DNA of 64,000 nt from Pristiophorus japonicus (lineage: Eukaryota), in the NCBI RefSeq assembly GCF_044704955.1, contig NC_092006.1, forward strand, positions 5,084,001-5,148,000, given 5' to 3'. The notes beneath the pieces are model-generated. The model had not been told where the DNA came from. It saw only the letters and a list, made by a program, of their open reading frames with translations, and searched no databases. Position 1 is the stretch's first letter; each line of letters begins with the position of its first letter. The translations under genes were made by a program, and so were the position numbers. Below, one piece after another: positions 1 through 58,085 of the stretch.

Positions 1-195
1 GGCTCGTTTACAAAACCGGACGGTTCGTGACGCCCGGGGGAAGATTTTCCGGCGAGGTATGCGAGCAATCGGGGAATCATTCGCTGGTCATTGACAACGT
101 CCAGAGGAACGATTCTGGGCGGTATTACTGCGCTGCTCCAAACGCCGGGAATCGGTCCCTGATATTCGGGACTGGCACCACGCTGGTGATCACAG
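1..195 (+). CDS. V-set Ig exon with germline-joined J (5'-truncated by window) of a VJ-C1-TM receptor gene
   Basis: The frame from nt 3 reads LVYKTGRFVTPGGRFSGEVCEQSGNHSLVIDNVQRNDSGRYYCAAPNAGNRSLIFGTGTTLVIT. It has RFSG, SLxI, DSGxYYC and the J motif FGxGTxLxI in one exon with no RSS between them. It ends ACA G|gtaat (phase-1 donor at 196). Confidence 0.93.
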
Positions 196-286
196 GTAAT
201 CCCACACGCCCATCCAATTGTGCGTCGAGACACCAATTCAAACCTGCCTTGTGCGCCTGGTTAATTCCAATTTCCCTTCCATCTAG

Positions 287-592
287 CGGGCCCCCCGGTC
301 CTCTTCCTCTTAACGCCGCCGCCGGCTGAGATTCCCCGGCTGGAGAGGGTGCCCTTGATGTGTCTGGTGCGGGGCGCTGCTCCCGACTCCTCCCCCATCC
401 GCTGGCTGGTTGCGGGACGGGCCGCCGAGGGACGGAGCGAGCCCGGGATGCTGGAGCCGGACGGGAGCTATACCGCCAGAAGCGTCCTGAGCGTCTCGGC
501 CGAAACCTGGCGCAGCGGCGCCGTCTGCACTTGCACCGTTCCGATCAACGCCACCGGGGATCTCCTGAGTGAAAGCGTCGCATCTCCGGGAG
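287..592 (+). CDS. C1-set Ig constant-domain exon of the same gene
   Basis: Acceptor ttccatctag|CG follows a 91-bp intron. Reads AGPPVLFLLTPPPAEIPRLERVPLMCLVRG...IRWLVAG...EPDGSYTARSVLSVSAETWRSGAVCTCTV..., with C1 hallmarks LxCLV, W, DGSY and W-x5-CxC-V. Donor GGA G|gtaact, phase 1. Confidence 0.92.
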
Positions 593-689
593 GTAACTGG
601 AGCTACTGGCGGTTTGCCAAATAGTTAGTGATAATAATGTTCATTATAGTATTGCTGGGATGTGAGGGTTTTTTTTGCACGAGAGATTG

Positions 690-1277
690 TGTAGAATGGG
701 CCTATGTTCTCTGGAGTTTCGTATAAGATTATGAGGGGGCTTGACAAGCTGGATGCAGAGAGGATGTTTCCACTGATGGGGGAGTCTAGAACTAGAGGGC
801 ATAATCTCAGAATAAGGGGCCGCCCATTTAAAACTGAGATGAGGAGGAATTTCTTCTCTGAGGGTTGTAAATCTGTGGAATTCGCTGCCTCAGAGAGCTG
901 TGGAAGCCGGGACATTGAGTAAATTTACGATAGAAATAGACAGTTTCTTAACTGATAAGTAATTAAGGGGTTATGGGGAGCGGGCAGGGAAGTGGAGCTG
1001 AGTCCATGATCGGATCAGCCATGATCGTATTGAATGGCGGAGCAGGCTCGAGGGGCCGAATGGCCGACTCCTGCTCCTATTTCTTATGTTCTTATGGAGT
1101 TTCGAAGAAGGAGAGGTGATCTCATTGAAACGTACAAGACTCTGAGGGGGATTGACAGGGTGGATGCAGGGAGGGTGTTTCCCCCCGGGGCTGGGGAGTC
1201 TAGAACCAGGGGTCACACAGTCTCAGGGTAAGGGGTTGGCCATTTAAGACTAAGATGGGGAGAACGTTCTTCACTTG
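690..1277 (+). mobile_element. Two CR1 LINE 3' fragments (intronic)
   Basis: ORF2 C-terminus (…SRTRGHNLRIRGRPFKTEMRRNFF…) and CR1 3' UTR ending ttcttatg repeats; boundaries approximate. Confidence 0.85.
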
Positions 1278-1830
1278 CGATTTACTACGTTACAGGCGCT
1301 ATATAAATATAAGTTGTTGTATATTGGGAGCACTAGTATGGAAAAGTAGTATTTTATAAATGACATGAGTTTGGAAAACAGCGAGACAGAGAGAGACCAT
1401 ATACACAAACCTGTAAATGTGGGAAGGGCAGGTTGGCGAGCTGGTTAAACTGGCTTACGGGGTACTTGAATTTATATAAGGAGATATTAGAACAGTTGAC
1501 CAAAAGCTTGGTCAAAGAGGGAGGTTTTACAGAAGGAGGAGAGGCGGAGAGGTTTAGGGAGAGAGTTCCAGAGCTTGGGGCCCCAGGCAGCTGAAGGCAC
1601 GGCCACCAATGGTGGAGCGATAGAAATCGGGGGGAATGCTCAAGAGGCCAGGATTGGAAGAGCGCAGAGATCACAGCCACTTACGTTGAGACAGTTCATA
1701 GTTCGTCACCATGTCTTTGATGATTCGGGCCAAAAACCAGCTTCAAACCCTCAGCGGACGAGGTTTCAGAATTTGACTGAATTATTTTGTGTTTCGCTCA
1801 TTTCACAAGAGTTGTCTTTCTGCCGTTCAG

Positions 1831-1947
1831 AGCCCCTTCACAGCTCGACCTGCCGCTTCGCGCTTTATGCCAGCCTGGCGATGGCTCCTCTTGTGATGGG
1901 GTTGATCGGTGTCGCGGTGGCACGGCGTGGCAAGACTCGCCAACCAG
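1831..1947 (+). CDS. Connecting peptide/transmembrane exon
   Basis: Acceptor ctttctgccgttcag|AG; reads EPLHSSTCRFALYASLAMAPLVMGLIGVAVARRGKTRQP (membrane-proximal Cys, hydrophobic span, basic stop-transfer); donor CCA G|gtactg; phases 1-1. Confidence 0.85.
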
Positions 1948-2049
1948 GTACTGCCCGTCTGAGCCAAACCCTCAATTTCGCCTTTAGCTGAACCTCTCCC
2001 TTTGGCGTGCCGGCCTGGACATTAACGCCAGTCATCTTCTTAAACCTAG

Positions 2050-2108
2050 AGAGTGCAGCCACGACTGACCGAGGTACCGCTTCAAGAATAAAGAAAGCAG
2101 AAGAGGAG
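2050..2108 (+). CDS. Short cytoplasmic exon
   Basis: Acceptor cttcttaaacctag|AG; reads ESAATTDRGTASRIKKAEEE; donor GAG|gtaggt (phase 0). Confidence 0.72.
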
Positions 2109-2370
2109 GTAGGTGCCACAAAGATGGGAGATGTTATTTTCATTAAAGAGCGGGGAGCGGGACTAATTGGATCATGCTTTCAAAGAGCCGACACAAGCTC
2201 GAAGGGCCAACTAGCCTCCTTCTGTGCTGTAAGATTCTATACTGGTGTCAAGTGTTTCATTGGTGTCCATGGACATGTCCGTTGTCAGTAACTTCAATGA
2301 GACATTCACATTAATACACTTGTGCCTCTCTCAGAAACAACCCAAAGCTATTCACCTGCAATGAATTGCA

Positions 2371-3250
2371 TAAGAACATAAGAACATAAGAATTAGGAAC
2401 AGGAGTAGGCCATCTAGCCCCTCAAGCCTGCTCCGCCATTCAACAAGACCATGGCTGATCTGGCCGTGGACTCAGCTCCACTTACCCGCCCGCTCCCGTA
2501 ACCCTTAATTCCCTTATTGGTTAAAAATCTATCTATCTGTGACTTGAATGCATTCAATGAGCTAGCCTCAACTGCTTCCTTGGGCAGAGAATTCCACAGA
2601 TTCACAACCCTCTGGGAGAAGAAATTCCTTCTCAACTCGGTTTTAAATTGGCTCCCCCGTATTTTGAGGCTATGCCCCCTAGTTCTAGTCTCCCCGACCA
2701 GTGGAAACAAACTCTCTGCCTCTATCTTGTCTATCCCTTTCATTATTTTAAATGTTTCTAGAAGATCACCCCTCATCCTTCTGAACTCCAACGAGTAAAG
2801 ACCCAGTCTACTCAATCTATCATCATAAGGTAACCCCCTCATCACCGGAATCAGCCTAGTGAATCGTCTCTGTACCCCCTCCAAAGCCAGTATATCCTTC
2901 CTTAAGTAAGGTGACCAAAACTGCACGCAGTACTACAGGTGCGGCCTCACCAATACCCTATACAGTTGCAGAAGGACCTCCCTGCTTTTGTACTCCATCC
3001 CTCTCGCAATGAAGGCCAACATTCCATTCGCCTTCCTGATTACCTACTGCACCTGCAAACTAACTTTTTGGGATTCATGCACAAGGACCCCCAGGTCCCT
3101 CTGCACCGCAGCATGTTGTAATTTCTCCCCATTCAAATAATATTCCCTTTTACTGTTTTTTTTCCCAAGGTGGATGACCTCACACTTTCCGACATTGTAT
3201 TCCATCTGCCAAACCTTAGCCCATTCGCTTAACCTATCTAAATCTCTTTG
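2371..3250 (-). mobile_element. CR1 LINE, 5'-truncated
   Basis: ORF 2414-2926 is the CR1 ORF2 C-terminus; (taagaaca)n tail at the left end. Confidence 0.9.
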
Positions 3251-3264
3251 CAACAGTGATGTCT

Positions 3265-3857
3265 TGCATTTAAATAGCGCCTTTGATGTCCTAAGGCGCT
3301 TCACAGGAGCATTAGTCAGACAAAAATTAAAGGTCGAACCCCACGAGGAGAGATTACGACAGGTGAGCAAAGGCTTGGCCGAGGAGGGAGGTTTTAAGGA
3401 GGAGAGAGGGGCAGAGAGGTTTAGGGAGGGAGTTCCAGAGCTTGGGGCCCAGGCAGCTGAAGGCACGGCCACCGATGGTGGAGCGATTATAATCAGGGAT
3501 GGTCAAGAGGGCAGAATTGGAGGAGCAGTAGGAGATAGGGAGGGATGTAGGTGCTGGAGGAGAGTACAGAGATAAGGAGGGGTGTATGGGCTGGAGGAGA
3601 TTACAGAGATAGAGAGGGGTGTAGGGGCTGGAGCAGGTTACAGAGATAGGGAGGGGTGTAGGGGTTGGAGGGGGTTACAGAGATAGGGAGGGGTGTAGGG
3701 GTTGGAGGGGGTTACAGAGATAGGGAGGGGTGTAGGGGCTAAAGGAGGTCACAGAGATAGGGAGGGATGTAGGGGCTGGAGGAGGTTACAGAGTTAGGGA
3801 GGGATGTAGAGGCTGGAGGAGGTTGCAGAGATAGGGAGGGGTGTAGGGCTGGAGGAG
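3265..3857 (-). repeat. L2-like LINE 3' end running into a ~34-bp G-rich minisatellite (ggttacagagatagggaggggtgtaggggctgga)
   Basis: Same L2-like sequence (ccagagcttggggcccaggcagctgaaggcacgg) also at ~1470-1672 and ~22620-22890; tandem units visible 3530-3857. Confidence 0.7.
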
Positions 3858-3859
3858 AG

Positions 3860-4256
3860 GCAGTACTGAGGGAGCGCCGCACTGTCGGAGGAGCAGTACT
3901 GAGGGAACACCGCACTGTCGGAGGGACCGTCTTTCGGCTGAGACGTTAAACCGAGGCACCATCTGCCCTCTCGGTTGTAAAAGATCCCGGGGCCACTATT
4001 GGAAGAAGAGCAGGGGGAGTTCTCCCCGGTGTCCTGGGGCCAATATTTATCCCTCAACCAACATCACTAAAAACAGATGATCCGGGTCATTATCACATTG
4101 CTGTGTGTGGGAGCTTGCTGTGCGCAAATTGAGCTGCCGCGTTTCCCACAATACAACAGTGACTGCACTTCAAAAAGTACTTCATTGGCTGTAAGGCGCT
4201 TTGGGACGACCGGTGGTGGTGAAGGGCGCTATAGAAATGCACGTCTATTTCTTTTC
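3860..4256 (+). mobile_element. SacSINE1/DeuSINE-like SINE (head missing)
   Basis: Central domain (gagacgttaaaccgagg…aagatccc…gaagaagagcagggggagttctccccggtgtcctggggccaatatttatccctcaacc) and L2-like tail (…gcgctatagaaatgca…ctttt); family name from recognition. Confidence 0.75.
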
Positions 4257-4306
4257 AATATAGTTGAGCAGGAAGGTAACGGTTTTCTCGTGTTGTTCCT
4301 TCACAG

Positions 4307-4342
4307 ACTATGTACGCGCACCTGGCATTCGCTGTGGATTAG
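4307..4342 (+). CDS. Terminal coding exon with ITIM/ITSM-like motif TMYAHL
   Basis: Acceptor tgttgttccttcacag|ACT (phase 0, matching the previous exon); reads TMYAHLAFAVD*; AATAAA follows at 4555. Confidence 0.78.
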   Translation, partial: TMYAHLAFAVD

Positions 4343-15700: not shown

Positions 15701-15833
15701 CTGTGGAAGCCGGGACATTGAATAAATTTAAGACAGAGATAGACAGTTTCTTAAATGATAAGGGGATAAAAGTGCGGGCAGGGAAGTGGAGCTGAGTCCA
15801 TGATCAGATCAGCCGTGATCTTATTAAATGGCG
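12722..15833. mobile_element. Nested cluster of CR1 fragments in alternating orientation plus a second LINE-family fragment (14292-14492)
   Basis: RT motifs on both strands (ORFs 13359-13901 on -, 13616-14173 on +); ORF2 C-termini at 14681-15160 (-) and 15194-15673 (+). Confidence 0.88.
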
Positions 15834-20700: not shown

Positions 20701-21870
20701 GCTGTGGAAGCCGGGACATTGAATAAATTTAAGACAGAGATAGACAGTTTCTTAAATGATAAGGGGATAAAAGTGCGGGCAGGGAAGTGGAGCTGAGTCC
20801 ATGATCAGATCAGCCGTGATCTTATTAAATGGCGGAGCAGGCTCGAGGGGCCGTATGGCCTACTCCTGCTCCTATTTCTTATGTTCTTATCCACCTGGCC
20901 TGCTACCTTCAGGGATCTGTGGACCTGCACTCCAAGCTCCCTTTGTTCCTCTACACTCAGTGTCGTACCATTTAATGCGTATTCCCTTGCCTTGTTAGAC
21001 CTCCCCAAATGCATTACCTCACACTTCACCAGATTGAATTCTATTTGCCGCTGTCCTGCCCACCTGACCAGTTCATTTGGTGAGCCGCCTTCTTGAACCG
21101 CTGCAGTCCTTTTGGTGAAGGTACAGCCTTGACTTTATTGTAACTGTTTGGTTCAACTGCAGAGGGGCAGTTAACCACAGCCAACCACATGGACAAGCAA
21201 TTAAGAAATTAAGCAATTAAGAAGCAAATGGTCTGTCGGCCTTTATTGCAAGAGGATTTGAGTATAAGTGTAAAGACATCTTACTGCGGTTATATCGGGC
21301 CCTGGTGAGACCACACCTGGAGTACTGTGCACAGTTTGGGTCTCCTTACATAAGGAAGGATATACTTGCCATTGAGGGAGTGCAGCGAAGGTTCACCAGA
21401 CTGATTCCTGGGATGGAGGGATTGTCCTATGAGGAGAGATTGAGTAGACTGGGCTGATATTCTCTGGAGTTTAGAAGAATGAGAGGTGATCTCATTGAAA
21501 CATACCAGATTCTGAGGGGGCTTGACAGGGTAGATGCAGGGAGGGTGTTTCCCCCGGGCTGGGGAATCTAGAACCAGGCGTCACACAGTCTCAGGGTAAG
21601 GGGAAGGCCATTTAGGACTGAGATGAGGAGGAATTTCTTCACTCAGAGGGAGGTGAATCTTTGCAATTCTCTGCCCCAGAGGGCTGTGGAGGCTCAGTCG
21701 TTGAGTATATTCAAGGCTGAGATCGATAGATTTTTGAATATTAAGGGAATCGAGGGATCGGGCGGGAAAGTGGAGTTGAAGTCGAAGATCAGCCGTGATC
21801 TTATTGAATGGCGGAGCAGGCTCGAGGGGCCGAATGGCCGACTCTTGCTCCTATTTCTTATGTTCTTGTG
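17722..21870. mobile_element. Duplicate CR1 cluster plus further CR1 fragments (20890-21075 on -, 21220-21870 on +)
   Basis: Same ORFs as 12722-15833; additional ORF2 C-terminal fragments. Confidence 0.88.
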
Positions 21871-25043: not shown

Positions 25044-28000
25044 TGTCGAGGAAATATTTAGCTTAAATTAACTCAGGCGGAGACTTTCAGAAGTGCACTT
25101 CGAGAGAATTTATTTTAAAAAGCGAGATATATCTCAGAGAGCCTGCTTGGACCATACCAAGGCAAAAACTCTGCCATACAGGCAAATTGTCCCTATCTTT
25201 ATACAGAAATTGAATACAGAAATATAAAAGGAATCTTATTCATTAGTCCCGCGAGTACAAAGGTCGTCTCGGGAGGTACACACTCTATCAACCGAGACTC
25301 CAGGATGGTATGTTGCCTCCCTGGTGCAAGGGTCAAGGATGTCTCGGAGCGGGTGCAGGACATTCTGAAATGGGAGGGAGAACAGCCAGTTGTCGTGGTG
25401 CACATTGGTACCAACGACATTGGTAAAAAAAGGGATGAGGTCCTACGAAAAGAATTTAAGGAGCTCGGAGCTAAATTAAAAAGTAGGACCTCAAAAGTAG
25501 TAATCTCGGGATTGCTACCAGTGCCACGTGCTAGTCAGAGTAGGAATCGCAGGATAGCGCAGATGAATACATGGCTTGAGCAGTGGTGCAGCAGGGAGGG
25601 ATTCAAATTCTTGGGGCATTGGAACCGGTTCTGGGGGAGGTGGGACCAGTACAAACCAGACGGTCTGCACCTGGGCAGGACCGGAACCAATGTCCTAGGG
25701 GGAGTGTTTGCTTGTGCTGTTGGGGAGGAGTAAAACTAATATTGCAGGGGGATGGGAACCTATGCAGGGAGACAGAGGGAGACAAAAATGAGGCAAAAGC
25801 AAAAGACAGAAAGGAGATGAGGAAAAGTGGAGGGCAGAGAAACCCAAGGCAAAGAACAAAAAGGGCCACTGTACAGCAAAATTCTAGAAGGAAAAAGGGT
25901 GTTAAAAAAGCAAGCCTGAAGGCTTTGTGTCTTAATGCAAGGAGTATCCGCAATAAGGTGGATGAATTAACTGTGCAAATAGATGTTAACAAATATGATG
26001 TGATTGGGATTACAGAGACGTGGCTCCAGGATGATCAGGGCTGGGAACTCAACATCCAGGGGTATTCAACATTCAGGAAGGATAGAATAAAAGGAAAAGG
26101 AGGTGGGGTAGCATTGCTGGTTAAAGAGGAGATTAATGCAACAGTTAGGAAAGACATTAGCTTGGATGATGTGGAATCTATATGGGTAGAGCTGCAGAAC
26201 ACTAAAGGGCAAAAATCGTTAGTGGGAGTTGTGTACAGACTTCCAAATAGTAGTAGTGATGTTGGGGAGGGCATCAAACAGGAAATTAGGAGTGCATGCA
26301 ATAAAGGTGCAGCAGTTATAATGGGTGACTTTAATATGCACAGAGATTGGGCTAGCCAAACTGGAAGCAATACGGTGGAGGAGGATTTTCTGGAGTGCAT
26401 AAGGGATGGTTTTCTAGACCAATATGTCGAGGAACCAACTAGGGGGGAGGCCATCTTAGACTGGGTGTTGTGTAATGAGAGAGGATTAATTAGCAATCTC
26501 ATTGTGCGAGGCCCCTTGGGGAAGAGTGACCATAATATGGTGGAATTCTGCATTAGGATGGAGAATGAAACAGTTAATTCAGAGACCATGGTCCAGAACT
26601 TAAAGAAGGGTAACTTTGAAGGTATGAGGCATGAATTGGCTAAGATAGATTGGCTAATGATACTTAAGGGGTTGATTGTGGATGGGCAATGGCAGACATT
26701 TAGAGACCGCACGGATGAATTACAACAATTGTACATTCCTGTCTGGCGTAAAAATAAAAAAGGGAAGGTGGCTCAACCGTGGCTATCTAGGGAAATCAGG
26801 GATAGTATTAAAGCCAAGGAAATGGCATACACATTGGCCAGAAATAGCAGCGAACCTGGGGACTGGGAGAAATTTAGAACTCAGCAGAGAAGGACAAAGG
26901 GTTTGATTAGGGCAGGGAAAATGGAGTACGAGAAGAAGCTTGCAGGGAACATTAAGGCAGATTGCAAAAGTTTCTATAGGTATGTAAAGTGAAAAAGATT
27001 AGTAAAGACAAACGTAGGTCCCCTGCAGTCAGAATCAGGGGAAGTCATAACGGGGAACAAAGAAATGGCAGACCAATTGAACAAGTACTTTGGTTCAGTA
27101 TTCACTAAGGAGGACACAAACAACCTTCCGGATATAAAAGTGGTCAGAGGGTCTAGTAAGGAGGAGGAACTGAGGGAAATCTTTATTAGTCGGGAAATTG
27201 TGTTGGGGAAATTGATGGGATTGAAGGCCGATAAATCCCCAGGGCCTGATGGACTGCATCCCAGAGTACTTAAGGAGGTGGCCTTGGAAATAGCGGATGC
27301 ATTGACAGTCATTTTCCAACATTCCATTGACTCTGGATCAGTTCCTATGGAGTGGAGGGTAGCCAATGTAACCCCACTTTTTAAAAAAGGAGGGAGAGAG
27401 AAAACAGGGAATTATAGACCGGTCAGCCTGACCTCAGTAGTGGGTAAAATGATGGAATCAATTATTAAGGATGTCATAGCAGTGCATCTGGAAAATGGTG
27501 ACATGATAGGTCCAAGTCAGCATGGATTTGTGAAAGGGAGATCATGCTTGACAAATCTTCTGGAATTTTTTGAGGATGTTTCCAATAAAGTGGACAAAGG
27601 AGTACCAGTTGGTGTGGTATATTTGGACTTTCAGAAAGCTTTCGACAAGGTCCCACACAGGAGATTAATGTGCAAAGTTAAAGCACATGGGATTGGGGGT
27701 AGTGTGCTGACGTGGATTGAGAACTGGTTGTCAGACAGGAAGCAAAGAGTAGGAGTAAATGGGTACTTTTCGGAATGGCAGGCAGTGACTAGTGGGGTAC
27801 CGCAGGGTTCTGTGCTGGGGCCCCAGCTGTTTACATTGTACATTAATGATTTAGACGAGGGGATTAAATGTAGTATCTCCAAATTTGCGGATGACACTAA
27901 GTTGGGTGGCAGTGTGAGCTGCGAGGAGGATGCTATGAGGCTACAGAGTGACTTGGATAGGTTAGGTGAGTGGGCAAATGCGTGGCAGATGAAGTATAAT

Positions 28001-29056
28001 GTGGATAAATGTGAGGTTATCCACTTTGGTGGTAAAAACAGAGAGACAGACTATTATCTGAATGGTGACAGATTAGGAAAAGGGAAGGTGCAACGAGACC
28101 TGGGTGTCATGGTACATCAGTCATTGAAGGTTGGCATGCAGGTACAGCAGGCGGTTAAGAAAGCAAATGGCATGTTGGCCTTCATAGCGAGGGGATTTGA
28201 GTACAGGGGCAGGGAGGTGTTGCTACAGTTGTACAGGGCCTTGGTGAGGCCACACCTGGAGTATTGTGTACAGTTTTGGTCTCCTAACTTGAGGAAGGAC
28301 ATTCTTGCTATTGAGGGAGTGCAGCGAAGATTCACCAGACTGATTCCCGGGATGGTGGGACTGACCTATCAAGAAAGACTGGATCAACTGGGCTTGTATT
28401 CACTGGAGTTCAGAAGAGTGAGAGGGGACCTCATAGAAACGTTTAAAATTCTGACGGGTTTGGACAGGTTGGATGCAGGAAGAATGTTCCCAATGTTGGG
28501 GAAGTCCAGAACCAGGGGTCACAGTCTAAGGATAAGGGGAAAGCCATTTAGGACCGAGATAAGGAGAAACTTCTTCACCCAGAGAGTGGTGAACCTGTGG
28601 AATTCTCTACCACAGGAAGTAGTTGAGGCCAATTCACTAAATATATTCAAAAGGGAGTTAGATGAAGTCCTTACTACTCGGGGGATCAAGGGTTATGGCG
28701 TGAAAGCAGGAAGGGGGTACTGAAGTTTCATGTTCAGCCATGAACTCATTGAATGGCGGTGCAGGCTAGAAGGGCTGAATGGCCTGCTCCTGCACCTATT
28801 TTCTATGTTTCTATGTTTCTATCTTTCTATGTTTCTATCTGTCCCTGCATAGTTTCTTTCTGTTCACAGTCTGATAAGCAGAATAAAAGGAGACTCCCTT
28901 TTAATACCAGATGGTCATTTAATTGCATCTCTAAGTTTCAAGGCTAAAAAAGCGTGGCTATTTTTCTAGTCCTATTATTTCTTTAAGCATAGCAAAAACA
29001 GAATTTAACCCTTCCCTTTTCCATAAGCCATAGATTCATAGATTCTTTCTTCCACA
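25044..29056 (-). repeat. ERV 3' LTR in two pieces (25044-25289 and 28840-29056), split by CR1
   Basis: The two pieces concatenate to match 35745-36207 with about 6 substitutions. Confidence 0.95.
25290..28833 (+). mobile_element. Young CR1 LINE: ORF1 C-terminal esterase (SGNH-like) domain and full-length ORF2 with one stop (26990-26992)
   Basis: ORF 25305-25733 has VVHIGTND and DGLHL. ORFs 25583-26992 and 27065-28723 give APE + RT. Flanked by a tctatc duplication (25284-25289 / 28834-28839). Confidence 0.96.
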
Positions 29057-29067
29057 ATTCCCTCCTT
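29057..29067 (-). promoter_or_regulatory. Polypurine tract of the ERV
   Basis: Minus strand AAGGAGGGAAT directly before the TG of the 3' LTR. Confidence 0.85.
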
Positions 29068-29102
29068 GTTGATCTTTTTATTTTTTAAATCAACACAATT
29101 TC

Positions 29103-30913
29103 CTATATTCTCTTCTTGAGCAAAAGGGGATTTATTACTTGACTAATTACATTTTTTAATTTTATCCACATTCCGCAAAGGATTATTAATAATACAAGCA
29201 TAACCACACCTACGATTACTATGGGGTGTATAGCAAGCTTCAGTACTGCTGTAGCTTTTGGGGACCATCCGGTAAACACATCCCACCAGTGGTGTACTGT
29301 CAAAGAGGTGACTTCATCTGCGATTCTCACTAGCTGCCCCTTCTTGTAACTCATTTCGACTCTAAATTGGTGGATGTCTCTGCCTTGCTTTGACAGAGCT
29401 TCCTCAATTTTCTTGTTATTACGTATCAAATTGTGCAGTCTGGTCAAATTAATTACAGGGGGTAAGGGTTCAATCTTGTGCATAGACAGATATTTTTCTA
29501 CATTTTGCCATTGCCCAAAGGTATAAGTTCTTTTTACTTCTGGGTCATACAGGGTGTGGACTTTTCTCACGCATTTATTAATGGGGGGTTTATACAAAAT
29601 TCCATCCAGATAGACAGGTTTATTTCCTGTCACACAGATCTCATTCTGTCCTATTTCCGTTATATCAGTGTCATTTGTTAGCTTTAATTCCCATTTACAT
29701 ACTCCAATGGAGTGCTGCAGTGAGCATGGTTCGTATATGGTGGTCTGATAGGGACATACCATTCCGAATGGCCACCTAGCACATCCCCTCTGGTGATGTG
29801 TCATATTCTTCTCATCGACCCAATCTCCTTTAAATTCTGGGTCCCAGAAGTTCTGTCCAAACAGCTGGGGCATTACTTGGAACTGACACCAAATTTCTTT
29901 TCGTGTCATACTTACTATCTCTCCAGTAACGTTACATCCTTTTGAATTACAACTGGTATATTTTTTTTGAGGGCTAATGGTTAAATTAAGAAGCTTATCT
30001 CTTTTGTTAATTTCCAGCAACCTTTCTTATGTGTTAGCATGGAAGGATAATATTTTCCTTTCTAACTCGGCTCTTAATAGCTGTCTGATCATTTCTTTAA
30101 ACAGGCAATGGGTGTACTTGTTTACTTCCTGTTGTTCTTTCATTAGGTTCTCTATTTCCTTCTCTATCCCTTCATTCTGTTGCCAGGTCATTTCATTTAT
30201 GACGTAACCTGATATCTGTAATTGCTGTAATCCTTCATTTCAGGCATTTCTGATTTTTATATCTTCCCCTACCAGTCCTCCGACAGCCTGGATTTTATTT
30301 TGTAGGGTCTCGATATCCATGGAGTTCAATGCTCCTATTCCTGCTCCCACTGCACCTAACACAGTCTCTAATACACCCCGTTTCTTTCTTTGGGGGCTTT
30401 CTTTTTCAAAAGATACCTTAACACTGGTTGTGTGGCAACCATCTTCTTTCTTTGGGGGATATTCACCGGGGTGTTATTCATGCACAACATCCACTGCCCT
30501 TCTACCATACTTGTAAATGAATAACGGAGGACGTCTTTTCTCTCGTCCGGCCCTCCTATGCACCCCCATCTCTTGTTTTTCCCTGTGCTCCAGGTACACT
30601 TCATCCACACATCGGCCTGGTATTCTATGAACAACTGATACCCTTTCCCCAATATAAATTGGAACTCCCCTCTTTCTTCCTTCATTCCACATGCCTCACA
30701 TCATGCCGTAAAATTCCCTACCTTACAACTTTGGCCTACTGGGCATATAAAATTGCCTTGCTGCCTCATATTATTACTTCTTTCCCATACCATATTTCCC
30801 TTCCATACTCTTCCTTCTTTTAGGACTTCTTCCTCCTGCCGGGAGTTCCCTGTTGCTAAAATGATCAGTATACCTAACGTCCATTTATAATTTTTCCAAG
30901 AGTCCCTTCCCAT
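29103..30913 (-). pseudogene. env: ERV envelope (three in-frame stops, one frameshift)
   Basis: Signal peptide (WTLGILIILATGNS), furin site RKKR ending at 30378, fusion peptide GVLETVLGAVGAGIGALNSMDI, heptad repeats, Cys-rich ectodomain, HHWWDVFTGWSP, and TM helix IVIVGVVMLVLLIILCGMWI. Confidence 0.92.
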
Positions 30914-31040
30914 CTTCCCTTTCTTGTTTGTTTCTATACCACTCTTGAATTAAGTCGTTACAATAACAACACGTCCACACGATAGTAACAGTGACCCAAA
31001 TAATAAAGGCCCAAACTGGCACACAAATGAGCTCTGACAT
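30885..31040 (-). CDS. Small 51-aa single-pass membrane ORF between pol and env
   Basis: MSELICVPVWAFIIWVTVTIVWTCCYCNDLIQEWYRNKQEREDGKGLLEKL*; overlaps the env ATG at 30913 in another frame. Confidence 0.5.
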   Translation of the reverse strand: MSELICVPVWAFIIWVTVTIVWTCCYCNDLIQEWYRNKQEREDGKGLLEKL

Positions 31041-31129
31041 CCATCCGTGAATTTTGGGCAATAATTTCAAGTCCAAATATTTAATACAAGAGCAGGTACA
31101 GTTCTTTCAGCGAGAAGATGGCTGTTTTC

Positions 31130-34100
31130 TTAGTCGGGCGACCGTAGTACGTCCTGGCTCAATGCCTTTTCCTTCGGCTGTAATTCGTCGGGGAAATGAT
31201 ATTTACAGCGGGTTGCATGCACCCAGTTCGGGTGCTTTTCCAACTTCAAAGCGGTTCGTGTTGTGAGAATTATCTGATACGGTCCTTTCCACCTAGGAGA
31301 AAAGGATTCTTTATTTAATGTTTTTACTAACACTTGATCTCCAGGTCTGAAAGGTGCATATTTCCTTCCGACGGGGCACCTGTGTCTGCTTTATTTGTTC
31401 ATGCAGCCTTCTTGCTATTTCACACATGGCCTGAGCATACTTTAGTGATTTTTCATCATTCCAAATTAATGCTATTTTTTCATCTGCCAGTGGTGGTTTT
31501 ACGCCAGTAGGCATTGGTCTTCCCAATAAGGCTTCATGTGGTGTCAACCCAGTGTTTCGGTTTTTCTGGTTTCTCATTGTATACAATACTCATGGTAAGG
31601 CATCTGGCCACTTCAGTCCAGTCTCCTGACATACCTTGGTAAGGGTAGATTTTATTATCCCATTTACTCTTTCTACCATTCCCGAGGACTGTGGCTGATA
31701 TGGTATATGTAACTTCCACTGGAACCCTAACGCTTCTGCAAGGTTTTGCACTATTTTTCCTGTGAAGTGGGTTCCCCTGTCACTGTTGATTCCCAAAGGT
31801 ATCCCATATCTTGGTACTATTTCTTTAAATCGAATTTTTACTACTGTTCGGGCATCGTCTCTCCTAGTGGCGTACGCTTCTACCCACCTTGTGAACATAT
31901 CTACTATGACTAATAGATACTTAAGACCTGATACTGGAGGCATGTGGACAAAGTCAATTTGCAAATTTTCAAAGGGCATACTTGGTTGGGGTAGATGATC
32001 ATATCCAGCAGGTGTTTTACCTCTGTTATTTTGTTGACAAATTTGGCATGTCCTAGCAACTTTCTCAATTACTACTGTTATTCCTGGTGCATACCACTGT
32101 GCATTGATAGCATGTATCATCCCTCCTTTGCCCATGTGAGCCTGACCGTGTGCTAGGCGAGACAGGGGCAAAAATAGAGATCTAGGGCAAACAGTTCGCC
32201 CATCAGGGTGATACCAAATGTCGTTTTTTAGAAAACAACCCTGGTTTTCCCAAGTTCTTCCTTCCTGCATGGTAACTTGTTGTTGGGCTGTTTTAAGTTG
32301 TTGGATGTCAAGTACCTGTGGAGGGGAACTGAGACTGCTTGAAGGCAGTCTGCCTGTGCCGAAGCGATCTGTTTGGCTGCCTCGTCAGCCCTCCTATTTC
32401 CTACTGATACTCCATCCTCACCGGTTGTGTGAGCTGCACATTTGATAACGGCTACCTTACTTGGCAACTGAATGGCGTCTAATAGATTAAGCACCAGTTG
32501 AGAGTGCTTAATATGCTTTCCACCAGAGGTGATAAAGCCTCTGTTTTTCCACAGTTGTCCAAAATCATGGAACCACACCGAATGCATATCTAGAATCAGT
32601 ATAGATATTAGCAGTATGATCTTTAGCTATTATACAAGCTCTAGTGAGGGCAAACAATTCAGCAGCCTGAGCCGAGGTTCCGGGAGGCAGGGCGAATGCT
32701 TCAACAGTTTCGTGGGGATTTACAATAGCATAGCCTGCCAAAAACAAATCATCCGATGGCCTATGTGATGATCCATCCATATAGAGAATAAGATCAGGAT
32801 TGTCCATGGGCTCTGTGAGCAAATCTGGTCTTGGTAAGGTGGCTATTTCCACCGTTAACAGACAATCATGCTGGTCTGGATCCTCTACTTCTTTAGCAGG
32901 AAGAAAAGTGGCTGGGTTCACTACCGGTGCACGTCGAAAGGTATAGTTAGGGTGTGACAGCAGTAATACTTCATAACCTGTTCTTCGAGATGCTGTAAAG
33001 TGTTGTGTGGCAGCTGAATTCAAAAGTAATAACACAGCATGGGCTGTAATGACAGTACATGGATGATCCAAGACAATAGGTACCGACTTCTCCACCATGA
33101 CCGCAGTAGCAGCTACAGCACGTAGACATGCTGGCATTCCCCTTACTACTGGAGGCAGCAAAACCGAATAATAAACAACTGGTCTATCTCCCCCACCATG
33201 TTCTTGGGTTAGTACTGCTGTTGCAAATCCTTCTTTCTCATTCACATACATCTGAAAAGGTTTACCATAATTCGGAAGTCCCAACGCCGGAGCATTAGTA
33301 ATGTCTTTCTTTAACTGTTTAAATGCCTCCTCTCTCTCTGGGGTCCACTCCACCTTGGGTGGGGCATCATTTAGGGCAGCTGATCTTAGGACCGCATCCC
33401 ATTCTCGATTCTTTCTGGTCCTAGCTGCCTCTGCCCTTGAGATATGTGAAAACCCAGGTACTGGACTTGAATCTGACAAAATTGTAACTTTGGTAACGAC
33501 ACTCGGTGCCCTCTTTCACATAGGTGCTGTAACAGTTTCAGGGAATCTTGCATGCACCTGTATCCGTGGCTAGAAGCCACAAGCAAATCCTTGGGGCAAC
33601 CTGGTCCATGTGTACTGCTGCTTCTTGTGGGTGAAAGCAAACAGATACTGACTTTCTTGATTTAACGGGATAGAGAAAAAAGCTGAACACAGGTCTATCA
33701 CAGTAAAGACAGTTGCTGTTGGTGGTATAGCAGATAGTATAATGTTGGTGTCCGGTACCACAGGGGTGATAGGGACTACTATCTTATTAATAGCTCTCAG
33801 ATCTTGCGCAAATCTCCATTCCTACAATCGGACCCATATCTTTAGGTTTCGCTGGCGGTTTTACAGCCAAGGTCAGATGGGGTGTCGAGTTCGCTTCTCT
33901 AAACCGCTGTTGCTGTAAGGGTGTCAATCGATGGCTACCCCCAATCCTTCTGGTCCAAAATAAATGCGGGGCGTAGCTTCTACTATTTCTTCTCTATTTA
34001 AAAAGGATTGTACCAAACACTGGTAAGTTTCAGCTTTTTGTCGAGTGTACCAGGCTGTACAGTGAAGCTGAACTGCCTCAAAGCTTGTCAAAATTATATA

Positions 34101-34655
34101 CATCAATTCTTCAGTATTAGAGTCAAATTTAGCTTTTAAGTTTTGTATAACTTCATGTATCAAGGGGGAATAGAAGTTGCCATTCAATTGCCAACAATAG
34201 AGGGCAGCCTTTTCTTTGTTATCCTCCCTTTTCTCTTCTTTAATCCCATTAAAGAACTGATGGATTTTATTTGGAGGGAGCTCCATGAACATTCCTTCCT
34301 TTGTGCAATAAATTGTGGCTCCTAGTTTGCACAAAGTCTGTCTTCCCAATAAAGGGAGCGGTGTTGTTTTAGAGACTATCAAAGTCTCATCATTAACTGA
34401 TTGTCCTTCAATTATCAATTTGGTAGGTTCAGATAAAAATTATTTCATGGGGATACCGGCCACACCCAAACTTAAGACGGTGGTGTTGCTTACAGGTAAT
34501 CCCACAGAGGATGGTACAGAAGACATAGTAGCACCGGTATCCACCAGGAACTTCACATAAGTGTCTCCTACTTTTACTACTGCCAGAGGGTTTTCTTCTA
34601 TGTCTGCCGATAAGCGGAGGGCTGCCGCCTGTAACACTAAGCCTCTGGGGCATCC
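31130..34655 (-). pseudogene. pol: ERV pro-pol, with deletions and frameshifts
   Basis: PR: FLVDTGA…LLGR. RT: WRFAQDLRAINK, VIDLCSAFFSIP, YTWTRLPQGF, with the YxDD region deleted. RNase H: YMDGSS, SAQAAEL, YTDSRYAFG. IN: HHCC, D-D-E (IDFVHM, SDRGTHF, SSGMVER) and a GPY module (PRWKGPYQIILTT). Confidence 0.95.
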
Positions 34656-35405
34656 CTATGCTGATTATTCTGTGCCTGTCCTCGTCCCTTTTGCTGATTT
34701 ACTGACCTGCTGTTTTAGCCTTATTTTCCTTATAGGTAAATAGTCCCTCTCTATCCATGTTAGCCAGTACTGTAACTGTCTCTTTCCAACTTTTTCCTTG
34801 CCAGTCCAAAACCTTTATTTTGTATGTTCTTGCTTGTTGTGGCAACATACAATTTAACAAGGTTTGCACTGCCAAAGGTTCATCTTTTACCCCTTGCCAA
34901 GAGGACCCATATGCTGCCTGCAGTCATAATTTCACATCTCCAGGGAGGGGGTTATAAATGGTACAGGTTTGCTCAAGCCAGTTGTGAAAGGCTACTGGCT
35001 TCTTAACAGGATTAGGGGCGGCTGTTATTTTTTTTAAAAACAATTCTCCATATAATCTTTATCCCAAGTGGGGTCCCCTGTCCCATTTTTGGTGGTCTGT
35101 CTCCATTCCTCAATTAAGGACAATTTAAAACTTCCTCCATATGGCCAATCCCCATCAGACCAACCGTACAAATCTCTACTAAACGTTACCGCGTATCTGT
35201 CGTCTCCTGTTTCTTTAATTACAGTGTCTGCCGGCGAGCCGGGCGGCACGATGGGATCTCCTACCTTCTCTCGTTGCTTTGCTACCTTACGGATTCTTTT
35301 CTCAGTCTTAGGATGTACTTTCATTCTTTCAGTTGAGAGGTCGTCCTTCTTTCCTTTTCTAGGAGCTGGGCGCGAGCGCCCTGCTCGACTAGAGCCGTTT
35401 CCCAT
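34656..35405 (-). pseudogene. gag: ERV gag, internally deleted, ending at an amber readthrough junction
   Basis: MGNGSS (myristoylation-type start), WPYGGSF matrix motif and a capsid-like fragment (PNPVKKPVAFHNWLEQTCTIYNPLPGDV). TAG at 34656-34658 is in frame with protease (TAG GGA TGC CCC). Confidence 0.85.
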
Positions 35406-35720
35406 TCTGCCGGGTGCAACGTCTCGCGATCTTTTCTGAAATGAGAGTTAGGACAATCCTACAAAAGATACAATAATTTACAAAGCGCTCACCGGTGTTC
35501 TCTTTTCTGCTCAGCTCGGGGTCTCCTTTCTCCTTTTGTTATTTTAGCTTCTTTGCGGTAGCTACCTTATGCCTCACCCCCCCCAGGGGATCTCGGCGGC
35601 CTGTCCCCCTTTTGCTAGGACGGCCTTGGCACCTTCCTCCTTTCAGCTAGGAAGGTCCTTAAAATTCCTCTTTTCTCTTTAAAAGTTAAATTTAGTTCTT
35701 TTGGATCTCGTTTTTTAGAG

Positions 35721-35739
35721 ATCCTGCCGGACTACGCCA
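35721..35739 (-). promoter_or_regulatory. Primer-binding site, tRNA-Ser type
   Basis: Minus strand TGGCGTAGTC(C)GGCAGGAT, 5 nt after the 5' LTR; complementary to the vertebrate tRNA-Ser 3' end …ATCCTGCCGACTACGCCA with one extra base. Confidence 0.85.
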
Positions 35740-35744
35740 GAATC

Positions 35745-36207
35745 TGTCGAGGAAATATTTAGCTTAAATTAACTCAGGCGGAGACTTTCAGAAGTGCACT
35801 TCGAGAGAATTTATTTTAAAAAGCGAGATATATCTCGGAGAGCCTGCTTGGACCGTACCAAGGCAAAAACTCTGCCGTACAGGCAAATTGTCCCTATCTT
35901 TATACAGAAATTGAATACAGAAATATAAAAGGAATCTTATTCATTAGTCCCGCGAGTACAAAGGTCGTCTCGGGAGGTACACACTCTATCTGTCCTTGCA
36001 TCGTTTCTTTCTGTTCACAGTCTGATAAGCAGAATAAAAGGAGACTCCCTTTTAATCCCAGATGGTCATTTAATTGCATCTCTAAGTTTCAAGGCTAAAA
36101 AAGCGTGGCTATTTTTCTAGTCCTATTATTTCTTTAAGCATAGCAAAAACAGAATTTAACCCTTCCCTTTTCCATAAGCCATAGATTCATAGATTCTTTC
36201 TTCCACA
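35745..36207 (-). repeat. ERV 5' LTR (463 bp)
   Basis: TG…CA termini; matches the split LTR; adjacent PBS. Confidence 0.95.
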
Positions 36208-38820: not shown

Positions 38821-39052
38821 TCTTGGTGCGAGTTAGGACACAGGGCGACAGATTTTTGTTGGCCTCATGTTTAAGGAGGTAGAACGTGGGAGGCCAGGAG
38901 AGCATTGGAATACAAGTGTAAGGGCGAAGATGAAAGCTCCCAATCAGTACCCAGGTTAAAGAAATGGCCCCTTTGAGGGATGTGAATGGCTCCTCCTGGA
39001 CTCTGCTCTCTGTTGATGCCCTTTGGTGTGAAGCTACCGCACAACCGCTGCC

Positions 39053-42005
39053 TCTCCAGCAGGTGGCGCTGTAACATCCCCTCCTTCTCCAGCAGGTGGT
39101 GCTGTAACATCCCCTCCCTCTCCAGCAGGTGGCGCTGTAACATCCCCTCCCTCTCCAGCAGGTGGTGCTGTAACATCCCCATTCACTCCAAGAGTTGGCG
39201 CCGTAACAGTCCCATTCTCTCCAGCAGGTGGCAATGTAACATACACTCCCTCTCCAGCAGGTGGCGCCGTAACAGTCCCGTTCTCTTCAGCAGGTGGCAC
39301 TGTAACATACACTCCCTCTCCAGCAGGTGGCGCCGTAACAGTCCCATTCTCTCCAGCAGGTGGCACTGTAACATACACTCCCTCTCCAGCAGGTGGCGCC
39401 GTAACAGTCCCATTCTCTTCAGCAGGTGGCACTGTAACAGCCCCTCCCTCTCCAGCAGGTGGCGGTGTAACATCCCCTCCCACTCCAGCAGGTGCCGCTG
39501 TAACAGTCCCATTCTCTCCAGCAGGTGGCACTGTAACATACCCTCCCTATCCAGCAGGAGGCGCCGTAACAGTCCCATTCTCTCCAGCAGGAGGCGCTGT
39601 AACAGTCCCATTCTCTCCAGCAGGTGGTGTTGTAACATCCCCATTCTCTCCAGCAGGTGGCGCTGTAACATACCCTCCGTCTCCAGCAGATGACGCTGTA
39701 GCATCCCCATTCTCTCCATCAGGCGGCGCTGTAACAGACCCTCCCACTCCAACAGGTGGCGCTGTAACAGACCCTCCCACTCCAACAGGTGGCGCTGTAA
39801 CAGACCCTCCCTCTCCAACAGGTGGCGCTGTAACAGACCCTCCAACTCCAACAGGTGGCGCTGTAACAGACCCTCCCTCTCCAGCAGGCGGGGCTGTAAT
39901 ATCCCCATTCTCTCCAGCAAGTGACGCTGTAACATCTCCTCGCTCTCCAGCAGGTGGCGCTGTAACCCCCATTCTCTCCATCAGGTGGTGCTGCAACATC
40001 CCCTGCCTCTCCAGTAGGTGACGCTGTAACCCCCATTCTCTCCATCAGGTGGTGCTGCAACATCCCCTCCCTCTCCAGCAGGTGGCTCTGTAACCCCCAT
40101 TCTCTCCAGCAGGTGGCGCTGTATCAAGGATCAAGGGGTATGGCGAGAAAGCAGGAATGGGGTACTAAAGTTGCATGTTGAGCCATGAACTCATTGAATG
40201 GCGGTGCAGGCTCGAAGGGCCGAATGGCCTACACCTGCACCTATTTTCTATGTTTCTATGTATCATCCCCTCCCTTTCCAGCAGGCGGCGCTGTAACATC
40301 CCCCATTCTCTCCAGCAGGTGAAACATAGAAAATAGGTGCATAGGCCATTCGGCCCTTCGAGCCCGCACCACCATTCAATAAGATCATGTCTGATCATTC
40401 ACCTCAGTACCCTTTCCTGCTTTCTCTCCATACTTCTTGATCCCTTTAGCTGTAAGGGCCATATCTAACTCCCTCCTGAATGTATCCAATGAACTGGCAG
40501 CAATAACTCTCTGCGGTAGGGAATCCCACAGGTTAACAACTCTCTAAGTGAAGACATTTCTCCTCATCTCAGTACTAAATGGCTTATCCCTTATCCTCAG
40601 ACTGTGACCCCTGGCTCTGGACTTCCCCAACATCGGGAACATTCTTCCTGCATCTAACCTGTCCAGTCCCGTCAGAATTTTATATGTTTCTATGAGATCC
40701 CCTCTCATCCTTCTGAACTCCAATGAATAAAGGCCCAGTTGATTCAGTCTCTCCTCATATGTCAGTCCAGCCATCCCTGGAATCTGTCTGGTGAACCTTC
40801 GCTGCACTCTCTCAATAGCAAGAACGTCCTTCCTCAGATTAGGAGACCAAAACTGAACACAATATTCCAGGTGAGGTCTCACCAAGGCCCTGTACAACTG
40901 CAGTAAGACCTCCCTGCTCCTATACTCAAATCCCCTAGCTATGAAGGCCAACATACCATTTGCCTTCTTCAGTGCCTGCTGTACCTGCATGCCAACTTTC
41001 AATGGCTGATGAACCATGACACCCAGGTCTCGTAGAGGATTTGAGAATAGGAGCAGGGAGGTCTTACTGCAGTTGTAGAGAGCCTTGGTGAGGCCACACC
41101 TGGAATATTGTGTTCAGTTTTGGTCTCCTAATCTGAGGAAGGATGTTCTTGCTATTGAGGGAGTTCAGCGAAGGTTCACCAGACTGAGTCCCAGGATGGC
41201 AGGACTGACATATGAAGAGAGACTGGATCGACTGGGCCTGTATCCACTGGAGTTTAGAAGAATGAGAGGGGATCTCATAGAAACACATAAAATTCTGACG
41301 GGACTGGACAGGTTAGATGCAGGAAGAATATTCCCGATGTTGGGGAAGTCCAGAAGCAGGGGTCACAGTCTAAGGATAAGGGGTAAGCCATTTAGGACCG
41401 AGATGAGGAGAAACTTCTTCACTCAGAGAGTTGTAAACCTGTGGAATTCTCTACCACAGAAAGTTGTTGAGGCCAGTTCATTAGTTATATTCAAAAGGGA
41501 GTTAGATGTGGCCTTTACGGTCAAAAGGATCAAGGGCAATGGAGAGAAAGCAAGAAAGGGGTACTGAGGTTGAATAATCAGCCATGATCTTATTGAATGG
41601 CGGTACAGGCTCGAAGGGCCGAATGGCCTGCTCCTGCACCTAATTGCTAAGTTTCTATGTAACATCCCCTCGCTCTCCAGCAGGTGGCGCTGTAACACCC
41701 CCATTCTCTCCAGCAGGTGGCGCTGTAACATCCCCATCCCTCTCCAGCAGGTGGTGCTGTAATATCCCCATTCTCTCCAGCAGGTGGCGCTGTAACACCC
41801 CTCCTTCTCCACCAGGTGGTGCTGTAACATCACCTCCTCCAGCACGTGGCACTGTAACATCCCTCCCTTCTCCACCAGGTGGCGCTGTAACATCACCTCC
41901 TCCAGCAGGTGGCACTGTAACATCCCCCCCTTCTCCACCAGGTAGCGCTGTAACATCAGCTCCTCCAGCAGGTGGCGCTGTAACATCCCCTCCCTCTCCA
42001 ACAGG
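39053..42005 (+). repeat. 33-bp minisatellite, each unit carrying a CTCF-consensus motif (ctCCAGCAGGTGGCGCTgtaacatccccattct), about 44 units in three blocks
   Basis: Blocks at about 39053-40121, 40262-40321 and 41658-42005, separated by CR1 insertions. Confidence 0.9.
40122..41657. mobile_element. CR1 fragments inserted in the CTCF-motif array (40125-40260 on +, 40322-41031 on -, 41035-41657 on +)
   Basis: ORFs 40544-41017 (-) and 41085-41567 (+) are ORF2 C-termini. Confidence 0.88.
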
Positions 42006-57062: not shown

Positions 57063-57651
57063 CCTGTGTCTGTGCTGCACGCTGTGTGCAATTCTACCTG
57101 AAGGGTCACCCTCTGCAGAAGAATGAAGTGGTGTGGGGAACGGAGCGATGAGAGTAAGCGAGGTAAGTTTCGAATCAATTACCGGTAGAGTTTGGCCGCG
57201 AGTCGAGCGGACCAATTTTTGCACTGCGCTGAATTTCTGAGCCGAGGTGCAGCAGTCCTTGACCTCAAAGGGCAGAGAAGCGAGGGCGACCCTGAAGCAG
57301 AGAGGTCAGGAGGATACAACCCGGCCACAGCCAGAGCAGAGGCGCCCGGCTTGTGGGCCGCGCGTGACGCGGTAGGCGCCTCGCCCGCCGCTCACGCTGC
57401 TTGCGGGGAGGGGCCGCTTGCGAACAGACGCGAAAGGCTCAGCCACGAACTGGTGGAAATAGCTGCACTGCCACAGATTCTGCCTTAGCCCGAAAGAGAG
57501 TGGCCGAGCTCGAAGCTCTCTGTGGTTTTCCTGTTGCTGCAGAAAGGTCAAACTCTGAGACATCACGTCAAACCGCTCGCAGTTTGCCGCCCAGAGTACA
57601 TTCAACCCAACCTACAGCAGCCCCCGTGTGCATTAACCTCATGTGCACCAT
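57063..57651 (-). pseudogene. Possible decayed leader / V-sized exon / start of C exon
   Basis: ATG exon 57651-57612 (phase 1), 75-bp intron, 354-nt exon 57536-57183 with frameshifted V-like fragments (AESVA, CSY, SALAVAGLYPPD), 70-bp intron, then an exon from 57112 (EGDPS…) cut by CR1. Confidence 0.33.
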
Positions 57652-57729
57652 TGCCTTTCTAGGTGGCGGTGCTCGGTGTTCGGACAGAAGGAATTGGTGT
57701 TATTCTGAGTCCCAGTTACATTCATTAAC

Positions 57730-58085
57730 CACCCTCCCGCACTCCCTCCTCCACCGCGGCTGCAGTGTGCACCATCTATCTGGCAAGTGTCTCACCTCCT
57801 GACTCCCCCAAAGCCTCTCCCACCATCTCCAAGTCAGGAGTGTGATGGAACACTCCCCACTTGCCTGGATGAGTTGCAGCTCCAGCAACGCTCGGGAAGC
57901 TCGACACCGTCCAGGACAAAGCAGCCCCGCTCGATCGGCCACGCTCCCCACCACCTTCAACACTCACTCCCTCCACCACCGGCGCACCGTGGCTGCAGTG
58001 TGCACCGTCTACACGATGCACCGCGGCAACTCGCCAAGGCTTCTTCGGCAGCACCTCCCAAACCCGCCACCTCTACCCGCTATAC
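57730..58085 (+). mobile_element. Fragment of a second CR1/L2-type LINE family (also 59289-59562, 14292-14492, 42415-42600)
   Basis: MEHSPLAWMS…HSLHHRRTVAAVCTVYTMH…PRLLRQHLP C-terminal ORF2 motifs. Confidence 0.7.

What the first reader, a model, noticed from the sequence alone, without database searches (positions are those of the whole stretch)
39053..42005. Tandem array of about 44 co-oriented CTCF-consensus motifs: a candidate super-anchor/insulator in an immune-receptor cluster
Seen: each 33-bp unit has a conserved core CCA(G/C)CAGGTGGC(G/A)CT, while the pyrimidine spacer varies freely. All units point the same way. A TGTAACATC element lies a few bases upstream of each core, and the array predates three CR1 insertions. 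Established: the CTCF core consensus is CCASYAGRKGGCRS with an optional upstream TGCAG-type module, and clustered co-oriented CTCF sites form loop anchors at mammalian Igh and protocadherin loci. Inference: a minisatellite-built chromatin boundary between the plus-strand receptor gene/ERV and the minus-strand locus.
Basis: partly seen in the sequence, partly recalled or inferred. Interest (0 to 1): 0.75.

Follow-up and report, generated by a model that had tools for sequence, protein, structure and literature searches.

The report
Shark minisatellite built from CTCF motif
A shark genome carries 44 head-to-tail copies of a 33-base unit that each hold the binding motif of the genome-folding protein CTCF, so it likely binds CTCF and would act as a one-way chromatin barrier of a kind known from mice, but it points away from the one immune-receptor gene in the window and binding is untested.

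Summary
The array is real: 44 co-oriented cores, 17 exact and 20 one-mismatch matches to CCASYAGRKGGCRS (chance 1.3 per window). It predates at least one CR1 insertion, which has a 7-bp target duplication. Contigs of one sample fit a single-locus array. The core's only CpG is at the methylation-insensitive position 12, so binding is plausible even if methylated. Core conservation over spacer is borderline (P 0 to 0.14 by simulation, 0.09 by permutation, none by parsimony). TGTAAC is not at the canonical upstream-module spacing. The only receptor gene found ends 35 kb upstream, the motifs face away from it, the ERV is on the minus strand, and no minus-strand locus was found. A rough estimate expects tens of such arrays per genome without selection. 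Best reading: local amplification of one CTCF site, likely bound and a by-product barrier for loops to the right; not an Igh-type super-anchor for this gene. Closest known is mouse DXPas34. This scan noted a similar 11-copy array in a chimaera-like fish (e1-7791257).

The parts
39051..40126 (+). Left block of the minisatellite: 33 CTCF-type cores (39056-40119), 33-bp units with three 31-bp units, and an A/B 66-bp alternation around 39188-39450
40120..40126 (+). Target-site duplication TGTATCA, left copy (variant of the unit's TGTAACA)
40127..40258 (+). CR1-type LINE 3' end inserted into a unit; best window match 96%
40259..40321 (+). Right copy of the target duplication, one full core (40278) and a cut core (40312-40321)
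40321..41033 (-). CR1-type 3' fragment, best window match 91%
41034..41660 (+). CR1-type 3' fragment, head-to-head with the previous one; no target duplication, so DNA between the two insertion sites may have been lost (inference)
41658..42005 (+). Right block: 10 full cores (41677-41978), 30/33-bp alternation, and a cut core at 41998-42005
38920..39050 (.). Left flank covered by a single contig in each of three runs of one sample; no likeness to the SINE that carries the other 33-bp family
3..4342 (+). Context: 3' part of a V(J)-C1-TM-tail receptor gene (V from 3, C1 286-591, TM from 1830, last exon 4304-4342 with TMYAHL); 34.7 kb upstream of the array
25044..36207 (-). Context: broken endogenous retrovirus (RNase H and integrase ORFs on minus strand; LTR pair 98.7% alike, one LTR split by a CR1)

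Best explanation
This is a 33-bp minisatellite whose unit contains a consensus CTCF core, likely made by local tandem amplification of one site; it is predicted to bind CTCF at several units and would then stall cohesin arriving from the right, as a lineage-specific by-product barrier rather than a selected anchor for the receptor gene. Shown: anatomy, orientation, CR1 insertion into a unit, CpG only at core position 12. Inferred: single locus, occupancy, barrier activity, origin from one site. The CTCF ZF3-11 footprint spans about 33-35 bp, so neighbouring units would be fully engaged only in part or in alternation.
For: 37 of 44 cores within one mismatch. C2 is followed by A in 44 of 44, so no inhibitory C2 CpG; binding is methylation-insensitive at C12 (PMC10484683; C2 dominant in PMC10325916). 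The motif is the same in lamprey, chicken and human (PMC5504073), and skate TAD borders show CTCF orientation bias (PMC10115646). Summed contig depth over unit 1 is 28-38 times the flank's, and 4 of 5 loose or joint strings checked occur in this array; the tool warns that this depth is no copy number. The unit has no source elsewhere in the window and is unrelated to the SINE-borne 33-mer (51 of 150 shuffles score as high). The window holds 10 long minisatellites; rough arithmetic expects about 39-52 arrays per genome to capture an existing CTCF core and 0.6-2.7 per Gb to hold a perfect core by chance. 2-4 tandem sites suffice for insulation at Sox2 (cited in PMC12885311).
Against: No occupancy or Hi-C data. 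The CpG at 12-13 has decayed in 14 of 44 units (7 TG, 7 CA), which points to germline methylation, and the region is at least 64% repeat, so chromatin may exclude CTCF. The upstream module, linked to strong insulation (PMC12885311), is missing at canonical spacing. Against 'by-product': neutral simulations reach the core-spacer contrast in only 0-14% of runs (10 settings), so some selection or biased spread is not excluded. The runs come from one sample that may be the assembly's source, and 29 loose ends were not shown.
Confidence: 0.5

Rival explanations
1. Inert minisatellite: the motif was captured and amplified, but the array sits in methylated, LINE-rich closed chromatin and is not bound.
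For: CpG decay in 14 of 44 cores; CpG o/e 0.36; three CR1 insertions tolerated; variants per site equal inside and outside the core; parsimony shows no core constraint; motif alone predicted binding poorly in Hox clusters (PMC5504073).
Against: Methylation at C12 does not block binding; 17 exact cores remain; the identity contrast exceeds most neutral simulations and exceeds the best window in 4 of 4 control arrays (0.075 vs 0.054-0.067; these are less diverged).
Confidence: 0.28
2. Selected super-anchor or boundary: the array is kept because it closes or organises a domain of non-rearranging V-C1 receptor genes, as 3'CBEs do at Igh.
For: Many strong co-oriented cores; only non-core variants reach 10 or more of 33 units (P=0.10); 5 of 6 consensus-tolerated core changes occur against 17 of 36 others (P=0.11); all length variants fall in the spacer; two related receptor proteins in Heterodontus list the same longest-contig length, hinting at a cluster.
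Against: Motifs face away from the only receptor gene found, whereas Igh 3'CBEs converge on the locus (PMC10293834). The gene is 34.7 kb away. No second gene in 108 long and 150 short ORFs scanned. No upstream module at canonical spacing. The best-kept 14-bp windows are shifted off the core (rank 9 of 33). Spacer variants are few linked haplotypes in a C-rich tract.
Confidence: 0.15
3. Multimerised E-box element: the CAGGTG inside the core binds E2A-type or ZEB-type proteins, and the array acts as a lymphoid enhancer or silencer, competing with CTCF.
For: CAGGTG is intact in 33 of 44 units; it is the canonical dsDNA site of E2A (PMC11165027).
Against: The hexamer is a by-product of the T at core position 9, which varies in 5 of 44; no other enhancer motifs were tested; far from the gene.
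Confidence: 0.05
4. Remnant of a coding mucin-like exon (11-residue PAGGAVTSPPS repeat).
For: A 329-codon open frame at 39032-40018.
Against: A 33-bp unit is a multiple of three and several frames are open; 31-bp units and CR1 insertions break the frame; no homologue at E<=1e-10 among 8000 candidates scored.
Confidence: 0.02

Closest known systems
DXPas34 minisatellite at mouse Tsix (PMC3149622, passages read)
   Same: Monomers of 30-34 bp, each described as holding a CTCF site; lineage-specific origin by local amplification; CTCF site number varies widely between species.
   Different: DXPas34 is CpG-rich and next to a promoter with a known role in X inactivation. This array has one CpG per unit (o/e 0.36), a closer fit to the modern core consensus, no promoter found nearby and no known role.
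Igh 3'CBE super-anchor (PMC10293834, passages read) and Pcdh tandem CBS arrays (PMC7087399, passages read)
   Same: Many co-oriented CTCF motifs in the wider vicinity of an Ig-superfamily gene.
   Different: Those sites converge on the locus they organise and have genetic proof. Here the motifs face away from the one receptor gene, are packed at 33 bp, and come from a tandem repeat.
DXZ4 and ICCE tandem repeats (PMC6125249, passages read)
   Same: Tandem repeat with CTCF motifs, interrupted by LINEs.
   Different: Units of 3-5 kb, motifs conserved across mammals, inactive-X-specific binding. Here the unit is 33 bp and cross-species conservation could not be tested.
Transposon-spread CTCF sites (lamprey hAT-Tip100; PMC5504073, passages read)
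   Same: Repeat-driven, lineage-specific multiplication of CTCF motifs.
   Different: Those are dispersed single sites; this is local tandem growth with no transposon source found in the window.

Membership tests
CTCF binding site | Core match to CCASYAGRKGGCRS | tested here: met
   17 exact and 20 one-mismatch of 44. Consensus taken from the finding; no PWM was run.
CTCF binding site | No methylatable CpG at inhibitory position C2 | tested here: met
   0 of 44 CpG at C2; CpG at C12 in 28 of 44 (PMC10484683).
CTCF binding site (two-part, ZF9-11 type) | CTGCAGTTCC-like motif at a 5- or 6-bp linker | tested here: not met
   Best 6 of 10 bases in 5 of 44 units; 0 of 44 have T-12, C-10, G-16 and C-15 together; 20 of 44 have T-12 and C-10 only.
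CTCF binding site | Occupancy in vivo | not testable with these tools
   No run with a recorded ChIP library among the 7 listed.
Igh 3'CBE-type super-anchor | Cluster of co-oriented sites | tested here: met
   44 of 44 on +; automatic for a head-to-tail repeat.
Igh 3'CBE-type super-anchor | Orientation convergent on the receptor locus served | tested here: not met
   The only receptor gene found lies upstream of the motifs; CTCF's N-terminal side faces downstream of the motif (PMC12885311). Genes beyond the window are unknown.
Igh 3'CBE-type super-anchor | Loop anchoring, stripe or insulation in contact maps | not testable with these tools
   No Hi-C analysis available.
Igh 3'CBE-type super-anchor | Purifying selection on the cores | tested here: inconclusive
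   Parsimony P=0.84, permutation P=0.09, simulations P 0-0.14.
DXPas34-type CTCF minisatellite | 30-34-bp monomers each with a CTCF motif | tested here: met
DXPas34-type CTCF minisatellite | Local array, not a dispersed family | tested here: inconclusive
   Consistent with one locus in one sample; no genome is held.
DXPas34-type CTCF minisatellite | CpG-rich monomers next to a regulated promoter | tested here: not met
   CpG o/e 0.36; nearest CpG-rich stretch seen is about 15 kb away. It shares the design, not this feature or the role.
DXZ4/ICCE macrosatellite | Kilobase-sized units | tested here: not met
   Unit 33 bp.

The most novel reading that the evidence does not exclude
A shark built a methylation-proof CTCF super-anchor from scratch by minisatellite growth: the unit equals one ZF3-11 footprint, lacks the inhibitory C2 CpG, and core-damaging variants are kept from spreading along the array, so it forms the left wall of the next domain beside a non-rearranging VJ-C1 receptor cluster. 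With the chimaera array, this may be a recurrent route to new boundaries in cartilaginous fish.
Probability: 0.15. Interest if true: 0.65.

Novelty: new member of a known kind. Interest (0 to 1): 0.3.

Why it matters
If bound, it shows that minisatellite growth, and not only transposition, makes strong CTCF clusters in sharks, whose genomes are rich in such repeats. It offers a natural test of how many CTCF molecules fit at 33-bp spacing and whether C12-only CpG arrays stay bound in methylated DNA. If unbound, it is an ordinary repeat and a caution against reading boundaries from motif counts.

Tried and rejected
No whole genome is held, so no genome-wide count or orthology test. Metagenome scan for two tandem units: 0 hits. 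X5 gave no cover. Origin from the SINE-borne 33-bp minisatellite: rejected. Coding repeat: no homologues. Rfam: 0 matches in the window. Second receptor gene: none in 108 of 179 ORFs of 100 aa or more (those left out were mainly repeat-array frames, N-spanning frames, duplicates and antisense overlaps) or in 150 of 203 shorter ORFs, nor by tblastn with 5 relatives or a TM/ITIM scan; very short exons could be missed. A chi-like octamer GCWGGWGG (recalled motif) is in 26 of 44 units; not pursued. Earlier notes: none by sequence, place or genome. Literature: no report of such an array in cartilaginous fish in searches (open-access library only; supplements not read).

Full report
Observation. The region 39051-42005 is a 33-bp minisatellite in two blocks. 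It has 44 full cores, all on the + strand, and two cut cores. Against CCASYAGRKGGCRS, 17 are exact, 20 have one mismatch, 6 two and 1 three. The window holds 39 matches within one mismatch, 37 of them here, against 1.26 expected. Co-orientation follows from head-to-tail repetition, so the array is one founding motif, not 44 independent ones.

History. Three LINE 3' ends interrupt the array. I call them CR1-type because the long copy in the window has an esterase ORF1 and endonuclease-RT ORF2; the label itself is recalled. The first insert is flanked by TGTATCA at 40120 and 40259, a target duplication inside a unit, so the array is older than it. The other two lie head-to-head with four core bases missing and no duplication; loss of intervening DNA is an inference. 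Their best matches in the window are 96, 91 and 92%.

One locus or a family? No genome is held. Four runs of one sample hold part of the stretch; this may be the assembly's source and is not independent support. Laid on the flank plus first unit, three of these runs show one contig over 38920-39036 (depth 15-23), a joint going back 33 bases, and summed depth over the unit 28-38 times the flank's. The tool warns that summed depth is no copy number, and 29 loose ends were hidden. Of five loose or joint strings I checked, four occur in this array and one does not. This fits a single array, not thousands of dispersed units. The unit has no match elsewhere in the window and is unrelated to the commoner 33-bp repeat that rides in a SINE-like element.

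Is the core conserved? I used the 33 gapless units of 44. Identity is 0.916 in the core and 0.841 outside. For: neutral forward simulations reach that contrast in 0-1.3% of matched runs with strong CpG mutability (3 settings) and 2.4-14% in 7 other settings; none of 4 control arrays reaches it; length variants fall only in the spacer. Against: variants per site are equal (1.29 vs 1.21), parsimony puts 26 of 54 changes in the core (P=0.84), column permutation gives P=0.09, the core ranks 9 of 33 circular windows, and non-core TGTAACA is the best-kept part. The common spacer variants are two linked blocks (positions 22-23 and 27-29) spread by duplication. The simulations assume even mutability, which a C-rich tract may break. 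Verdict: inconclusive, leaning weakly to constraint.

Would CTCF bind? The motif is the same from lamprey to human (PMC5504073, passages), and skate boundaries follow the CTCF orientation rule (PMC10115646, passages). [quoted passage not shown] Here C2 is never in a CpG (0 of 44), while the C12 CpG is intact in 28 and decayed in 14. So the array was probably methylated in the germline, yet that need not block binding. The upstream module is not there in canonical form: CTGCAGTTCC normally sits at a 5-bp linker, range 2-7 (PMC12885311, passages). TGTAAC lies at the 7-bp extreme in 33-bp units, with a mean of 4.2 of 10 bases matched; at 5-6 bp only 5 of 44 units reach 6 of 10. In its favour, 20 of 44 units have the ZF9-10 bases T-12 and C-10, but none also has G-16 and C-15. 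ZF3-11 was crystallised on 35 bp, so full engagement of adjacent 33-bp units would be crowded (inference).

Context. The window is at least 64% self-repeating. Its start holds a V(J)-C1-TM-tail receptor gene whose C1 exon is 99% identical to a Pristiophorus japonicus protein, so the organism is that sawshark or a close relative. The gene ends at 4342, 34.7 kb before the array. The ERV at 25044-36207 is on the minus strand. No minus-strand receptor locus was found. CTCF's N-terminal side faces downstream of the motif as written, so these sites would hold loops running to higher coordinates, away from the gene. The ten Igh 3'CBEs instead converge on their locus (PMC10293834, passages). The array could still be the left wall of the next domain.

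How surprising? A random 33-bp unit holds a perfect core with probability 1-4 x 10^-5. With 3-4 locally born arrays per 64 kb, extrapolated from this one repeat-rich window, that gives 0.6-2.7 per Gb by chance, and about 39-52 per genome capturing an existing site if sharks have as many as lamprey's 41,421 peaks. These are rough figures, but they make such arrays expected without selection.

Verdict. A real CTCF-motif minisatellite, probably single-locus and probably bindable (best reading 0.5; inert 0.28; selected boundary 0.15; E-box 0.05; coding 0.02). It shares the design of DXPas34, could work like a tandem-CBS barrier, and fails the orientation test for an Igh-type super-anchor of the one gene in view. 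I found no report of such arrays in cartilaginous fish (searches; open-access only). Also seen as passages only: PMC6125249, PMC7087399, PMC11165027, PMC12227049 and PMC10751288. No supplements were read. Interest 0.3.

Noticed in passing
window 3-4342 (+): Germline-joined V(J)-C1-TM receptor gene with a tail motif TMYAHL; relatives in Heterodontus, Pristis and Hypanus carry only automatic names or none. It did not match the description of UrIg or UrIg2 in the passages read, and may be an undescribed non-rearranging antigen-receptor-like family.
   Followed up: partly
window 3860, 10395, 16020, 22312, 36297, 54313, 62802: A second 33-bp minisatellite family expands inside a SINE-like element at seven places, from 2 to 71 copies: a transposon-borne variable repeat.
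   Followed up: partly
window 11020-15833 and 16020-20834: A 4.8-kb tandem duplication at 99.1% identity with minisatellite ends; recent duplication or assembly artefact.
   Followed up: no
window 25044-36207 (-): Broken endogenous retrovirus with LTRs 98.7% alike; one LTR is split by a near full-length CR1 (about 25290-28833) with an esterase ORF1.
   Followed up: no
window 57071-57780: CpG-island-like unique stretch (GC 0.58, CpG o/e 0.80) with a lone CTCF-like motif near 57655 and a possible + strand splice donor; may be a promoter.
   Followed up: no
window 39044: The flank contig in all three runs of the sample reads G where the window has A: another haplotype, another individual or an assembly error.
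   Followed up: no
window 13359-14157, 40321-41660: Head-to-head CR1 pairs forming long inverted repeats recur in the window.
   Followed up: no
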